DNA from: Thermoleophilia bacterium
Lineage (GTDB): Bacteria; Actinomycetota; Thermoleophilia; BMS3ABIN01
Direction of reading: 5' to 3'
DNA: 64,000 bases
Assembly: GCA_041658605.1 (NCBI GenBank)
Contig: JBAZZU010000002.1
Coordinates: 1,477-65,476, forward strand
Under the pieces are notes generated by a model. The model was not told the origin of the DNA. It saw nothing but the letters and a program-made list of their open reading frames with translations, and ran no database searches. Position numbers and translations under genes: made by a program. Positions 10,957 through 48,700 of this stretch are shown here, piece after piece. How positions within the stretch are numbered: position 1 is the first letter of the stretch; each line of letters begins with the position of its first letter.

Positions 10957-11240
10957 AAAAAAACCTTCCCCAAAGGGAAGGTTTGCATGCGCACGAAAAC
11001 GTCACTGTCCGGCGCTTATGGATTTGCAGCCTTATCCAAAGCACTACGGCAGTACCGTCTACAGTCACATGGCCTTCCCCAACTCATACAAGCTTTGGCA
11101 CAGCGCATCGTAGAGATTTCTCTCAGCCGTTTCGGGCAAAACCTTATGCCGGTAATGCCTGTTCTACCCGTTGGGGTCTTTGGACCTTTCCGGGCAACGG
11201 CCTGTGTCCGCGCTGGAGCCTCACCTAACGAGGATTAGCT
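10957..11240 (-). ncRNA. M-box (ykoK-leader) Mg2+ riboswitch with its terminator expression platform.
   Basis: The minus strand reads CGUUAGGUGAGGCUCC...UUGCCCGGAAAGGUCCAAAGACCCCAACGGGU...CAUAAGGUU...GUGCCAAAGCUUG, which matches the conserved M-box segments. The terminator CCUUCCC-UUUG-GGGAAGG plus U7 at 10985-10957 lies about 20 nt before the gene start. Confidence 0.8.
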
Positions 11241-19061: not shown

Positions 19062-19457
19062 TCAGTCCGGGGTTACTTTTACCAACACTTTCCGCGTCCG
19101 CGGCCCGTCGAACTCACAGAAGTAAATCGCCTGCCAGGTTCCGAGAACCAGCTGTCCGTCGCTGACCAGAACTGTTTCAGAGGAGCCCACCAGGCTGGTT
19201 TTAATATGGGCGGCGGAATTTCCTTCAGCATGCGAGTAAGCGTCGTTCCAGGGAATGGCCTTGTCCAGGCCGGCTATCACGTCGAGTTTAACCGCGGGGT
19301 CCGCACCCTCGTTGATGGTCACAGCGGCAGTTGTGTGAGGGACGAAAACGATGCAGACACCGTCAACGACGCCACTGTCACCGACCGCCTGCATAACTTC
19401 AGCCGTTATGTCCACAAGTTCACTGCGTGAGCCGGTCGATACCGTGAATTTCCGCAT
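19062..19457 (-). CDS. YjbQ/UPF0047 family protein (secondary thiamine-phosphate synthase-like).
   Basis: Conserved YjbQ core. The likely start is MRKFTV. Confidence 0.7.
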   Translation of the reverse strand: MRKFTVSTGSRSELVDITAEVMQAVGDSGVVDGVCIVFVPHTTAAVTINEGADPAVKLDVIAGLDKAIPWNDAYSHAEGNSAAHIKTSLVGSSETVLVSDGQLVLGTWQAIYFCEFDGPRTRKVLVKVTPD

Positions 19458-19539
19458 ACCTTTCGTCCTCCAGACCCAGATCAACTGTCTTTTGCCCAGA
19501 TTACGTGTTCTCACAGCTTACGAACCCGATCCAAACATA

Positions 19540-19730
19540 TATTAACTGTCATTCTGAGGAGCAAAATTAACTGTCATCCTGAGGAGCAAACATCAGCTCA
19601 GGTTGACTGTCACATTGGCTGTCATTCTGAGGAGCAAAGCGACGAAGAATCTGCTTTTCGGGTTCCTCATAGCCAAAGCAGATTCTTCGGCACTCTCCGC
19701 TTCGCTCCGAGTGCCTCAGAATGACAATTT
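19540..19730. repeat. Composite palindromic repeat element. Two truncated tandem units are followed by a ~110-bp nested inverted repeat.
   Basis: TTAACTGTCATYCTGAGGAGCAAA occurs twice. Then TGTCATTCTGAGG...ACGAAGAATCTGCTTT-17nt-AAAGCAGATTCTTCG...CCTCAGAATGACA, with a perfect 13-bp outer arm and a perfect 15-bp inner arm. Confidence 0.7.
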
Positions 19731-19764
19731 CTGATGGAATTGCAGGCAGTACAGGCGCCCGCAT

Positions 19765-20352
19765 TTAAAAAACAATAAAGAAAAGCGTCCATAGCGCTCC
19801 TGTGAGCAGACCGACCGCGGTGCCCGCCAGAACGTCCGAGGGATAGTGAACTCCGACGTAGACGCGCGACCACGACATCAGTAAAGCCAGGCCATAAAAC
19901 AGAGGCGCCAGCGAAGGCTGGATATATGTGAGGATCGTCGCCGCGCCAAAGGACATCGCCGCATGTGACGAGGGGAACGACTTGCTGGACGGAACACCTA
20001 CGAGCGGTTTTAAGGCCGGGTCATCGGAAGCGGGCCTTTCGCGCCGGAGGGATTCCTTTAAAAAAGAATTGAACACCATGGTGGAAAAGACCACCACGGG
20101 GACGGAGACGATCATGGGCCTGCCGTGTTCGGAGCCGGAGCGCCAGTAAGCCAGCGCAAAAACCGATGCCAGCGCCACCCAGAAAATTCCCCAGTTGCCG
20201 GTTCTGGAAAACATGGATATCGCGAGCTCCAGTGGGCGTGAGTGGCACTTCGTCCTGAAGGCGCGGTAAACGCGGTAATCGAGGCTTTCACTCTTGTCAG
20301 CGGCGGGTTGCGACAGGTTCATATTGATTTCACTTTCAGGGTTAGAGTTCAA
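19765..20352 (-). CDS. PAP2-family phosphatase, membrane-bound.
   Basis: KxxxxxxRP, PSGH-like PSSHAA and SRxxxxxHxxxD motifs. Confidence 0.75.
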   Translation of the reverse strand: MNSNPESEINMNLSQPAADKSESLDYRVYRAFRTKCHSRPLELAISMFSRTGNWGIFWVALASVFALAYWRSGSEHGRPMIVSVPVVVFSTMVFNSFLKESLRRERPASDDPALKPLVGVPSSKSFPSSHAAMSFGAATILTYIQPSLAPLFYGLALLMSWSRVYVGVHYPSDVLAGTAVGLLTGALWTLFFIVF

Positions 20353-21486: not shown

Positions 21487-21522
21487 ATTGTCATCCTGAG
21501 GCGCGCAGCGCCGAAGGATCTC
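21487..21522. repeat. Dispersed short copy of the TGTCATCCTGAGG...GAAGGATCT motif.
   Basis: ATTGTCATCCTGAGGCGCGCAGCGCCGAAGGATCTC. A third copy lies at 48634-48666. Confidence 0.5.
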
Positions 21523-48614: not shown

Positions 48615-48665
48615 GGTCGTGGCGAACCGCAGGCAGTCATCCTGAGGCAAAGCCGAAGGATCTTG

Positions 48666-48700
48666 AAGGGCGCGCTTTTTTCAGCGCGTCCTTTTAATGT
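48666..48700 (+). terminator. Rho-independent terminator after the phasin gene. It is preceded by a repeat-family copy at 48634-48666.
   Basis: GGGCGCGCT-TTTTTC-AGCGCGTCC followed by T4. Confidence 0.5.

What the first reader, a model, noticed from the sequence alone, without database searches (positions are those of the whole stretch)
19540..19730. Nested palindromic repeat element between yjbQ and the PAP2 gene: a MITE/REP-like or structured-RNA locus
A 25-bp unit TTAACTGTCATYCTGAGGAGCAAA occurs twice in tandem at 19542-19591. A third unit opens a ~110-bp imperfect palindrome at 19619-19729.

The palindrome has a perfect 13-bp outer arm, TGTCATTCTGAGG pairing with CCTCAGAATGACA. Its inner arm is a perfect 15 bp, CGAAGAATCTGCTTT pairing with AAAGCAGATTCTTCG. 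A 17-nt central loop separates the inner arms. The right flank carries an extra small hairpin, CACTC...GAGTG.

No ORF is involved. The features do not explain it, and it lies in the promoter region of yjbQ.
Basis: seen in the sequence. Interest (0 to 1): 0.6.

Follow-up and report, generated by a model that had tools for sequence, protein, structure and literature searches.

The report
Ssn-type hairpin repeat cluster (REP-like)
The palindrome upstream of yjbQ is a cluster of short DNA hairpin repeats found across more than 20 bacterial phyla, which flank, and are probably cut by, a small GIY-YIG single-strand DNA nuclease (the Ssn family described in 2025), so it is a known kind of element in a sequence class not yet catalogued.

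Summary
The window has a 25-nt tandem at 19541-19590, a third copy at 19614-19638 and a ~107-nt palindrome at 19620-19726.

The true unit is a 27-46 nt hairpin module: yTGTC, ATYCT, GA, a variable inner stem-loop, GA, AGRAT, Ctc. The palindrome is two such units in inverted, heads-out orientation around a 29-nt spacer. The "tandem repeat" is a duplicated head half of one unit. Two more units lie at 21489 and 48635.

The same module occurs in more than 20 phyla and in viral contigs. Its stems covary.

In 79 protein-selected metagenome loci the module is about 20-100 times denser within 300 nt of small GIY-YIG nuclease genes than further away. It typically brackets the gene heads-out. That protein family is homologous to Neisseria SsnA (E 1e-17), whose gene is flanked by NTS repeats. 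So these are Ssn-related motifs (Chenal 2025), part of the CGTC/TGTC-tagged REP superfamily (Di Nocera 2013).

The published SRM search string does not match this tandem-G·A class. No ssn gene was seen in about 73 kb of the source Thermoleophilia genome.

There is no support for a dedicated RNA element, a RAYT REP or a DDE MITE. Verdict: known kind, uncatalogued sequence class, moderate interest.

The parts
19541..19565 (+). Head-half copy 1: 6 nt of flank (ATTAAC), the TGTC tag, the 5' stem ATTCT, GA, and GGAGCAAA up to the loop. It has no 3' half.
   Evidence: the same kind of head-half duplication is seen family-wide and in the Planktothrix plasmid
19566..19590 (+). Head-half copy 2 (the ATCCT variant), in tandem with copy 1.
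   Evidence: copy number varies among relatives: none in L242, one 36-nt-period fragment plus a diverged third stretch in L245, two in L244
19597..19613 (-). Inverted head fragment (GTCAACCTGAG on the minus strand) plus a TGTCAC remnant. It pairs with head-half copy 2.
19620..19653 (+). Unit A: TGTC-ATTCT-GA-G[GA-GC-AAA-GC-GA]C-GA-AGAAT-CTG. This is the nested double tandem-G·A subtype.
   Evidence: the same subtype is seen in L248, L252 and L274; the orthologous copy in relatives has a compensatory ATCCT/AGGAT stem
19652..19680 (.). 29-nt spacer of the heads-out dimer, with complementary ends TGCTTT / AAAGCA and a 17-nt variable centre.
   Evidence: the spacer length is typical of the family (2-89 nt, median about 29)
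19681..19726 (-). Unit B: TGTC-ATTCT-GA-GGCACTC-[GGAGCGAAGCGGA]-GAGTGCC-GA-AGAAT-C.
   Evidence: predicted DNA hairpin -9.5 kcal/mol; it is decayed in L245
21489..21522 (+). Unit C: TGTC-ATCCT-GA-GGCGC-GCA-GCGCC-GA-AGGAT-CTC. It lies upstream of the SAM_HAT gene, antisense to it.
   Evidence: it is conserved at the orthologous site in relatives whose YjbQ is 82-90% identical
48635..48664 (+). Unit D: AGTC-ATCCT-GA-GGC-AAA-GCC-GA-AGGAT-CTT. It starts 22 nt after the phasin-like gene stop and is followed by a terminator-like hairpin.
   Evidence: it is decaying in relatives L332 and L333 and absent in L335
19062..19457 (-). yjbQ (PF01894), the gene downstream of the cluster.
19765..20352 (-). 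PAP2 phosphatase gene (PF01569), the gene upstream of the cluster.

Best explanation
The locus is a cluster of Ssn-related hairpin repeats (SRM), which belong to the CGTC/TGTC-tagged REP superfamily.

Each unit is predicted to fold, as single-stranded DNA, into this layout:
- an unpaired 5' tag, yGTC;
- a 5-bp outer stem, AT(Y)CT / AG(R)AT;
- a symmetric 2x2 GA/GA internal loop, presumably tandem sheared G·A pairs;
- a modular inner stem-loop, most often GC-GNA-GC;
- a short tail, C-T/C-N.

The ~107-nt palindrome is two such units in heads-out orientation around a 29-nt spacer. Elsewhere the same arrangement brackets a ~95-110-aa single-domain GIY-YIG nuclease gene homologous to Neisseria SsnA. 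The window element is therefore best read as a gene-less derivative of a unit-ssn-unit cassette, analogous to a REPIN or MITE. The 25-nt 'tandem repeat' is a duplicated head half of unit A.

How it works (inferred from the published Ssn enzymology, not tested here): when the DNA is single-stranded, during replication, transformation, conjugation or ssDNA-phage infection, a cognate Ssn binds the folded, strand-specific motif and nicks a few nucleotides 5' of the tag. This would affect recombination and DNA uptake, and probably drives the repeats' own spread and rearrangement.

In this Thermoleophilia lineage the copies are old and vertically inherited. Whether an ssn gene is still present in the genome is unknown.
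For: Shown here:
1. Unit anatomy, with four full units in the window. Units B, C and D fold as predicted with DNA parameters.
The genome hits come from more than 20 phyla, including Chloroflexota, Acidobacteriota, Bacteroidota, Nitrospirota, CPR, Bacillota, Desulfobacterota and Planctomycetota.
3. Base pairing is selected:
 - The Y6/R-4 position pairs as C-G 157 and T-A 152, with 5 not Watson-Crick (4 C·A, 1 T·G wobble).
 - A non-circular test on protein-selected loci gives 171/185 stem cells paired, against a maximum of 160 in 1000 shuffles, with four pair types at stem position 3.
 - An orthologous compensatory change is seen in unit A: ATTCT/AGAAT becomes ATCCT/AGGAT.
4. The units behave as DNA-level repeats:
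 - about 72% lie between ORFs, against about 12% inter-ORF DNA;
 - sense and antisense counts are 66 and 59;
 - convergent against divergent spacers are 49 and 23.
5. Association with GIY-YIG genes. The 79 loci were chosen by protein only, using the tail-trimmed profile A4. Units per kb are:
 - upstream: 3.6 at 1-100 nt, 1.9 at 101-300 nt, 0.03-0.05 beyond 300 nt;
 - downstream: 4.5 at 1-100 nt, 2.5 at 101-300 nt, 0.12-0.25 beyond 300 nt.
 The typical layout is a + unit 20-30 nt before the start and a - unit 20-30 nt after the end. 15 of 120 homologues end in ...DSSLRSE*, with the stop codon inside the unit head (biased by the query tail).
6. That protein family hits the N. gonorrhoeae ssnA locus (44% identity, E 1e-17), which is flanked by 10 canonical NTS repeats.
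7. Heads-out dimers dominate: TT 24, HH 5, HT 9. The window's 29-nt spacer is typical.
8. Head-half duplications are family-typical: 41/386 units have one upstream against 8 in the downstream control, most often with periods of 16-27 nt. The Planktothrix plasmid ssn locus shows the same.

From the literature: Ssn enzymes cut only ssDNA, strand-specifically, just 5' of their hairpin repeat, and occur in an SRM-ssn-SRM layout (PMC11893778). The tagged REP superfamily has a TGTC/CGTC tag, a stem beginning AT and a 3-nt tail (PMC3733652).
Against: - No GIY-YIG ORF was found in the window or in about 9 kb of extra flank, about 73 kb in total. A cognate enzyme in this genome is therefore unproven.
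- The published degenerate SRM search string does not match these units, nor any unit next to the 79 GIY-YIG loci.
- Identity of the GIY-YIG family with CDD cd10448 could not be checked directly. NCBIfam has no model for it.
- No cleavage assay exists for this tandem-G·A class.
- Mobility is inferred. I found no clean filled-site/empty-site pair.
- Units A, B and C are conserved at orthologous sites next to ribosome-binding sites. That could also reflect a locally exapted function.
Confidence: 0.8

Rival explanations
1. A cis-acting structured RNA. This could be a 5'-UTR or intercistronic element, an RNase target, an mRNA stabiliser or an attenuator that controls yjbQ or the PAP2-yjbQ operon.
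For: - The predicted fold is strong on both strands (z about -6).
- The dimer and unit C are conserved at orthologous positions just upstream of ribosome-binding sites.
- A compensatory change occurs in unit A.
- REPs in other bacteria are known to affect mRNA stability and termination (PMC3733652).
Against: - There is no Rfam hit, even at E up to 10.
- The same module sits next to unrelated genes in more than 20 phyla, in both orientations relative to transcription (66 sense, 59 antisense).
- The compensatory change preserves the single-unit hairpin but breaks the long inter-unit helix.
- There is no U-tract and no promoter-like site.
- Unit D decays in relatives.
- Ssn does not bind RNA (PMC11893778).

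A secondary, local RNA effect is not excluded.
Confidence: 0.1
2. A classical REP/REPIN, mobilised by a RAYT (a Y1 HUH transposase of the IS200 type).
For: - The architecture is analogous: a tagged hairpin, inverted doublets with a spacer, and an intergenic location.
- A RAYT-like ORF exists in one unit-bearing contig, L065.
Against: - The tag is YGTC, not GT[AG]G.
- The L065 RAYT is flanked by a different repeat (GGCGCAGGCTTCCAGCCTGTGGGG), and the nearest unit lies 3.9 kb away.
- No Y1 gene recurs next to units among 888 neighbouring ORFs.
- The strong, position-specific partner is a GIY-YIG gene.
- CGTC-type REPs were reported to lack a RAYT (PMC3733652).
Confidence: 0.06
3. A DDE-transposase MITE whose terminal inverted repeats begin TGTCAT...
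For: The heads-out inverted arrangement with a short internal region resembles a MITE.
Against: - No target-site duplication is present. The flanks are ...ATTGGC and ATTTCT....
- Most copies are single hairpins, not pairs.
- The 'TIR' is itself a covarying hairpin.
- No DDE transposase recurs nearby.
Confidence: 0.03

Closest known systems
Ssn-related motifs (SRM) / Neisseria NTS repeats with SsnA GIY-YIG ssDNA nucleases (Chenal et al. 2025, PMC11893778)
   Same: - Both are oriented hairpin repeats with an unpaired HGTC 5' tag, a stem beginning AT and a short tail.
- Both have tens to hundreds of copies and are mostly intergenic.
- Both bracket a ~95-110-aa single-domain GIY-YIG gene.
- That gene family is homologous to the NTS-flanked Neisseria gene (E 1e-17).
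   Different: - The stem is interrupted by a conserved 2x2 GA/GA loop, and the inner stem-loop is modular (3-nt GNA loops, or long inserts).
- The published degenerate SRM string does not match.
- The host range seen here (Chloroflexota, Acidobacteriota, CPR, Bacteroidota, Bacillota, Actinomycetota and others) is wider than the Pseudomonadota emphasis of the paper.
- No enzyme of this subclass has been assayed.
- No ssn gene is seen in the sampled part of this genome.
CGTC-tagged REP superfamily, including Neisseria dRS3 and Rickettsia RPE-4/6 (Di Nocera et al. 2013, PMC3733652)
   Same: - The unpaired CGTC/TGTC tag.
- Complementary A-T at the first two stem positions.
- A 3-nt untagged-end tail.
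- Dimers whose spacers have complementary ends.
- A preference for unidirectional and convergent intergenic regions.
- No RAYT.
   Different: - The published families have continuous 8-9-bp stems, 4-5-nt loops, a CCA tail and mostly head-to-head dimers.
- Here the structure is a 5-bp stem, tandem G·A and an inner stem, with a CTC-like tail.
- Tail-to-tail (heads-out) dimers predominate, 24 against 5.
REPIN/RAYT systems (Bertels & Rainey 2011; Nunvar 2010)
   Same: - Inverted doublets of a tagged hairpin act as a non-autonomous unit.
- A single-copy nuclease gene is flanked by the repeats.
- Inheritance is long-term and vertical.
   Different: - The tag differs (GTAG in REPINs).
- The enzyme class differs (a Y1 HUH transposase against a GIY-YIG nuclease).
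Cycas/Ginkgo mitochondrial Bpu elements (Chaw 2008; PMC8297867)
   Same: The 36-nt consensus AAGGTTATCCCTTTCCTGAGCGTAGCGAAGGGAAGG has the same core CTGAGCGTAGCGAAG. It has the same layout: outer stem, GA, GC-GTA-GC, GA, outer stem (pairing read from the sequence).
   Different: - It has no GTC tag.
- Its outer stem is 8 bp, and it has AAGG terminal direct repeats.
- It is in an organellar genome.
- The relationship is untested and may be convergence.

Membership tests
SRM (Ssn-related motif; PMC11893778) | A 20-50 nt inverted repeat that forms a hairpin | tested here: met
   Units are 27-46 nt. Units B, C and D fold as predicted. Covariation supports the pairing.
SRM (Ssn-related motif; PMC11893778) | A conserved unpaired 5' HGTC sequence that gives the repeat an orientation | tested here: met
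   Units A, B and C carry TGTC and unit D carries AGTC. Across the family the base before GTC is T in 79% and C in 16% of copies.
SRM (Ssn-related motif; PMC11893778) | Matches the published degenerate search sequence HGTCWYN(0-2)YYVSBRHN(0-5)WNVSBRGN(0-2)RNCYNB | tested here: not met
   The regex matches NTS. It matches none of units A-D, has no hit anywhere in the window, and has no hit within 300 nt of 79 GIY-YIG loci.
SRM (Ssn-related motif; PMC11893778) | Repeats flank genes of single-domain GIY-YIG Ssn homologues on both sides | tested here: met
   For this unit class, density near the gene is about 20-100 times higher than further away, and the heads-out bracket is seen in L266, L269, L276, L277, L310, L312, L325 and L328. 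Homology to the NTS-flanked Neisseria gene is E 1e-17.
SRM (Ssn-related motif; PMC11893778) | An ssn gene is present in the same genome as the repeats | tested here: inconclusive
   No GIY-YIG ORF was found in the 64-kb window or in about 9 kb of extra flank.
SRM (Ssn-related motif; PMC11893778) | Strand-specific cleavage of ssDNA (not dsDNA or RNA) just 5' of the motif by the cognate Ssn | not testable with these tools
   This needs biochemistry.
SRM (Ssn-related motif; PMC11893778) | The partner protein belongs to CDD cd10448 | not testable with these tools
   CDD is not available here. The precomputed Pfam domain is PF01541. NCBIfam has no family for it. The nearest PDB entries are UPF0213 proteins 1zg2 and 1ywl.
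CGTC-tagged REP superfamily (PMC3733652) | An unpaired CGTC/TGTC/CCTC tag at one end, with the stem starting with complementary A-T in positions 1-2 | tested here: met
   The units read TGTC then AT...AT.
CGTC-tagged REP superfamily (PMC3733652) | A continuous 8-9 bp stem and a 4-5 nt loop | tested here: not met
   The structure is a 5-bp stem, a GA/GA loop and an inner stem. The commonest loop is the 3-nt GNA.
CGTC-tagged REP superfamily (PMC3733652) | Head-to-head dimers predominate | tested here: not met
   Counts are TT 24, HH 5 and HT 9.
REP/REPIN-RAYT | A GT[AG]G tag and a RAYT gene flanked by the repeats | tested here: not met
   The tag is YGTC. The only RAYT-like ORF is flanked by a different repeat.
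Rfam RNA families | A covariance-model match | tested here: not met
   Only an M-box at 11071-11239 reaches the gathering threshold. Nothing meaningful appears at E up to 10 in 19300-19950.
DDE-type MITE | Terminal inverted repeats plus a target-site duplication | tested here: not met
   The flanks of the dimer are unrelated. Single units predominate.

The most novel reading that the evidence does not exclude
The tandem-G·A hairpin and its Ssn-like GIY-YIG gene form a distinct, pan-bacterial, and also virus-borne, class. The published SRM consensus misses this class. On this reading:
- unit-ssn-unit cassettes are genuinely mobile;
- heads-out gene-less dimers such as the one at 19620-19726 are their MITE-like derivatives;
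- head-half tandem duplications are footprints of Ssn nicking just 5' of the tag.

That would make this a GIY-YIG-driven counterpart of REPIN/RAYT systems. A further stretch is that the Cycas/Ginkgo mitochondrial Bpu elements are relatives.
Probability: 0.3. Interest if true: 0.65.

Novelty: new variant of a known kind. Interest (0 to 1): 0.4.

Why it matters
The nested palindrome is explained. It is not a regulator specific to yjbQ. It is a local cluster of one of the most widely distributed short repeats in bacteria, and that repeat is tied to a nuclease family recognised only in 2025.

The practical consequences are these:
- Annotation. The units generate spurious ORFs and protein tails such as ...DSSLRSE and VILSEAKNL, and they break assemblies.
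- Cataloguing. The published SRM search motif misses this tandem-G·A class, so censuses of Ssn/SRM systems are probably underestimates.
- Enzymology and tools. Each class implies a new ssDNA-nuclease specificity. The GA/GA loop plus GNA-triloop design suggests a very stable DNA mini-hairpin as the recognition scaffold.
- Evolution. Gene-less heads-out dimers and head-half duplications give testable predictions on whether Ssn cassettes are mobile.

Tried and rejected
- **Rfam.** I searched at gathering thresholds and at permissive E-values. Nothing relevant was found.
- **Literature search by sequence.** Searching literal sequence strings found only primers and the Cycas Bpu consensus.
- **Hammerhead-like reading of CUGAnGA.** I considered it and dropped it. 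Only the window's GGAGC variant fits CUGANGA, and the GAAA and stem III elements are missing.
- **RAYT partner.** One RAYT-like ORF (L065) is flanked by a different repeat. All-against-all clustering of 888 ORFs near units gave only phage structural families and no recurring transposase.
- **GIY-YIG in the source genome.** A motif scan of the window found none. Two flank extensions found none.
- **Sigma-70 promoter or intrinsic terminator in the element.** None was found.
- **Supplementary tables.** Those of the REP paper contain no such sequence. Those of the Ssn paper are not held.
- **Empty-site test at unit D.** Relatives show decay or absence but no clean insertion boundary.
- **Taxon guess.** My first guess of Bacillota, based on gene order, was wrong. 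The identical YjbQ is named from a Thermoleophilia MAG.

Full report
**1. The observation**

- TRF reports a period-25 array at 19541-19590 (2.0 copies, 96% match). A third copy lies at 19614-19638.
- The 13-nt perfect outer arms are at 19620-19632 and 19714-19726. The 15-nt perfect inner arms are at 19643-19657 and 19675-19689, with 17 nt between them.
- The 19-mer TGTCATTCTGAGGAGCAAA occurs 3 times against 0.03 expected.
- The region folds far better than shuffles on either strand. RNA z-scores are -6.2 and -6.35, and the DNA z-score for the dimer is -7.4.
- The element lies between the stop of a PAP2 gene (19765) and the start of yjbQ (19457), both on the minus strand.

**2. The real repeat unit**

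Reading other matches to GTCATYCTGAG revealed two more elements, at 21489-21522 and 48635-48664. Aligning the four shows a hairpin module:
- an unpaired tag yTGTC;
- a 5-nt stem ATYCT;
- GA;
- an inner stem-loop of variable sequence and length (GGCGC-GCA-GCGCC; GGC-AAA-GCC; GGCACTC-13 nt-GAGTGCC);
- GA;
- the complementary stem AGRAT;
- a tail Ctc.

The big palindrome is simply unit A (19620-19653, +) and unit B (19681-19726, -) in inverted, heads-out orientation around a 29-nt spacer with complementary ends TGCTTT/AAAGCA.

The 25-nt tandem copies contain only 6 nt of flank, the tag and the 5' half of a unit. They are head-half duplications. An inverted head fragment lies at 19597-19607.

Units B, C and D fold exactly as drawn with DNA parameters. 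Unit A does not fold under nearest-neighbour rules because its inner part is a second, nested GA-GC-AAA-GC-GA module. That subtype recurs in other genomes (GGAGCGGAGCGACC and similar).

**3. Distribution**

The exact pattern GTCATYCTGAGS-N(1-31)-SCGAAGRATC has about 8 chance matches expected in the genome collection (my calculation).

Those came from Nitrospirota, Chloroflexota, Acidobacteriota, Bacteroidota, CPR/Patescibacteria, Bacillota, Desulfobacterota, Planctomycetota, Gemmatimonadota, Omnitrophota, Melainabacteria, Campylobacterota and others.

The commonest form is the 25-mer GTCATTCTGAGCGNAGCGAAGAATC. Its centre, GCGNAGC, is the sequence known from the DNA-structure literature as an unusually stable mini-hairpin. 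This point rests on my own knowledge.

The source organism is a Thermoleophilia (Actinomycetota) MAG, according to the NCBI name attached to the identical YjbQ protein. The same locus occurs 100% identical in ENA metagenome ERZ27247322.

**4. Is the pairing selected?**

Yes, on three lines of evidence.
- In 314 distinct instances, the Y and R positions left free by the search pattern pair as C-G 157 and T-A 152. Only 5 are not Watson-Crick (4 C·A, 1 T·G wobble). The S/S positions pair in 296 of 314.
- I ran a non-circular test on loci chosen by protein homology only, fixing the inner hairpin and leaving both outer stems free. It gives 171/185 stem cells paired, against a mean of 152 and a maximum of 160 in 1000 partner shuffles. 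Stem position 3 shows T-A, C-G, G-C and A-T.
- At the orthologous PAP2-yjbQ spacer, relatives whose YjbQ is 82-90% identical carry unit A with ATCCT/AGGAT where the window has ATTCT/AGAAT. This double change keeps the single-unit hairpin but mismatches the long A-B helix. The unit hairpin, not the ~107-nt palindrome, is therefore what is maintained.

**5. DNA-level or RNA-level?**

I used a crude ORF-based gene map of 240 loci.
- About 72% of units lie between ORFs, although only about 12% of the DNA does.
- In unidirectional spacers the units are sense 66 times and antisense 59 times.
- Convergent spacers outnumber divergent ones 49 to 23.

This is the REP-like pattern: a preference for positions downstream of genes, with no strand preference. 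A strand-specific RNA would not show it.

Rfam has nothing. No promoter-like or terminator-like site lies in the element.

**6. The partner**

RAYT was the obvious candidate. However, the one RAYT-like ORF in the sample is flanked by an unrelated repeat, and no transposase recurs near units.

In a Gracilibacteria contig, a 109-aa GIY-YIG gene sits between units and ends inside one of them. Among its 120 best homologues, 15 end in ...DSSLRSE*, with the TGA stop inside the unit head GAATGAC. That count is biased by the query's own tail.

To remove the bias I trimmed 30 homologues to the conserved domain (alignment A4) and fetched 80 metagenome loci by protein alone. A generic detector (GTC, 5-nt stem, GA, inner hairpin, GA, complementary stem, C) gave these densities in units per kb:

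| Distance from gene | Upstream | Downstream |
|---|---|---|
| 1-100 nt | 3.56 | 4.51 |
| 101-300 nt | 1.86 | 2.48 |
| 301-1000 nt | 0.03 | 0.25 |
| 1-4 kb | 0.05 | 0.12 |

The recurrent layout is a + unit 20-30 nt before the start codon and a - unit 20-30 nt after the domain end. That is the same heads-out arrangement as the window's palindrome, but with a gene instead of a 29-nt spacer.

Most of the 'negative' loci I inspected carry variants that the detector misses, with ATTGC/GCAAT stems or GA..GT loops.

Gene-less heads-out dimers are the commonest dimer type: TT 24, HH 5, HT 9. TT spacers run 2-89 nt with a median of about 29.

**7. Comparison with what is known**

A literature search found Chenal et al. 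2025 (PMC11893778). That paper reports the following:
- Single-domain GIY-YIG proteins (Ssn, cd10448) are site-specific nucleases that cut only single-stranded DNA.
- They cut strand-specifically, just 5' of hairpin repeats (NTS in Neisseria, SRM in general).
- Those repeats flank the ssn gene in an SRM-ssn-SRM layout and occur in hundreds of copies.
- In Neisseria they modulate transformation.

The GIY-YIG family found here hits the N. gonorrhoeae chromosome (held in PLSDB as a 'plasmid') at 44% identity, E 1e-17. That locus is surrounded by 10 canonical NTS copies, CGTCATTCCCGCGCAGGCGGGAATC. The other hits are in rhizobia, sphingomonads and Azospirillum, several of them species that Di Nocera et al. 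2013 named as carrying CGTC-tagged REPs.

The window units share the defining anatomy of that superfamily: an unpaired C/TGTC tag, a stem starting AT and a 3-nt tail.

They differ in three ways:
- They have a conserved GA/GA internal loop and a modular inner stem.
- Tail-to-tail dimers predominate over head-to-head dimers.
- They do not match the published degenerate SRM search string, which matches NTS but none of units A-D and nothing near the 79 GIY-YIG loci.

**8. History at this locus**

- The A-B dimer is present at the orthologous site in relatives down to 82% YjbQ identity. Unit B is decayed in the 82% relative.
- Head-half copies vary. L242 has none. L245 has one 36-nt-period fragment plus a diverged third stretch. 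The window and the 95% relative L244 have two.
- Unit C is identical except for its loop in all relatives, immediately upstream of the SAM_HAT gene's ribosome-binding site.
- Unit D is decaying in the 91% and 87% relatives and absent in a 67% relative.

The copies are therefore old, vertically inherited and under uneven constraint.

Head-half duplication is a family trait. 41 of 386 units have an extra head within 70 nt upstream, against 8 downstream, most often with periods of 16-27 nt. The Planktothrix plasmid ssn locus shows triple head-half copies on both sides.

**9. Mechanism: what is shown and what is inferred**

Shown:
- the hairpin anatomy and covariation;
- the DNA-level distribution;
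- the tight, oriented association with Ssn-like genes;
- the homology of those genes to NTS-flanked Neisseria ssnA.

Inferred from the published enzymology: a cognate Ssn binds the folded single strand and nicks just 5' of the tag.

Inferred by me:
- heads-out dimers are gene-less derivatives of unit-ssn-unit cassettes;
- head-half duplications are by-products of nicking and repair at the head end.

Unknown: whether this genome still has an ssn gene. None was seen in about 73 kb. Also unknown is whether the cluster affects PAP2 or yjbQ expression.

**10. Verdict**

This is a known kind of element (SRM, tagged REP), in a sequence class not covered by the published motif and with an unassayed enzyme subclass. 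It is not a yjbQ-specific regulator and not a new RNA.

Interest is moderate, at 0.4. The locus itself is ordinary for this family. The family-level observations are worth a specialist's follow-up: pan-phylum breadth, the tandem-G·A design, gene-less dimers, head-half footprints and the Bpu resemblance.

Noticed in passing
window 11071-11239 (-): A full-length M-box (Mg2+) riboswitch, 139.5 bits, E 2e-31. In the syntenic contigs it lies upstream of the MgtE and Nramp transporter genes.
   Followed up: no
literature: PMC8297867: The 36-nt Bpu element of Cycas/Ginkgo mitochondria (AAGGTTATCCCTTTCCTGAGCGTAGCGAAGGGAAGG, about 500 copies) has the identical core CTGAGCGTAGCGAAG. It has the same stem / GA / GC-GNA-GC / GA / stem layout but no GTC tag. 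This could be relatedness or convergence. Plant organelles have a GIY-YIG protein, MSH1.
   Followed up: partly
L328 (Planktothrix agardhii plasmid NZ_LR882964.1 18147-19816): The unit-flanked Ssn-like gene WP_083616022.1 sits between an MmeI-type restriction-modification gene and the DISARM gene drmA, that is, inside a defence island. Both flanks carry heads-out dimers and triple head-half duplications.
   Followed up: partly
L248 vs L249 (near-identical JGI contigs Ga0210033_1006051 and Ga0210041_1006216): The arrays of units downstream of the GIY-YIG gene differ in copy number and order between two almost identical contigs. This indicates rapid expansion and contraction of unit arrays.
   Followed up: no
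L065 1000-1900: A RAYT-like Y1 transposase ORF (1167-1817) is bracketed by a different widespread palindromic repeat, GGCGCAGGCTTCCAGCCTGTGGGG / CCCCACAGGCTGGAAGCCTGCGCC. This is a separate REP/RAYT system in the same contig as one of our units.
   Followed up: partly
several viral loci (e.g. L008, L027, L038, L046): A further conserved flank motif, (A)CCCTTCGCYTCYT, recurs immediately 5' of the tag and between head-half copies. ...GACCCTTCGC also recurs 3' of some tails. This suggests a larger composite repeat in some lineages.
   Followed up: no
window 48667-48700 (+): A terminator-like hairpin (AAGGGCGCGC-TTTTTTCA-GCGCGTCCTTTT) lies directly after unit D, between convergent genes. It is conserved in relatives even where unit D is decaying.
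   Followed up: partly
Many Ssn-like homologues sit on very short contigs (0.5-2 kb), consistent with their flanking repeats breaking assemblies. NCBIfam release 20 has no model for this family.
   Followed up: no
L162 5700-6700 (Gracilibacteria MAG JBDHUY010000008.1): A dense mosaic of forward units, reverse variant units (TGTC-ACTCT-GA-AC-GGA-GT-GA-AGAGT-C) and other ~55-nt direct repeats surrounds the GIY-YIG gene. Two stem variants coexist at one locus.
   Followed up: partly
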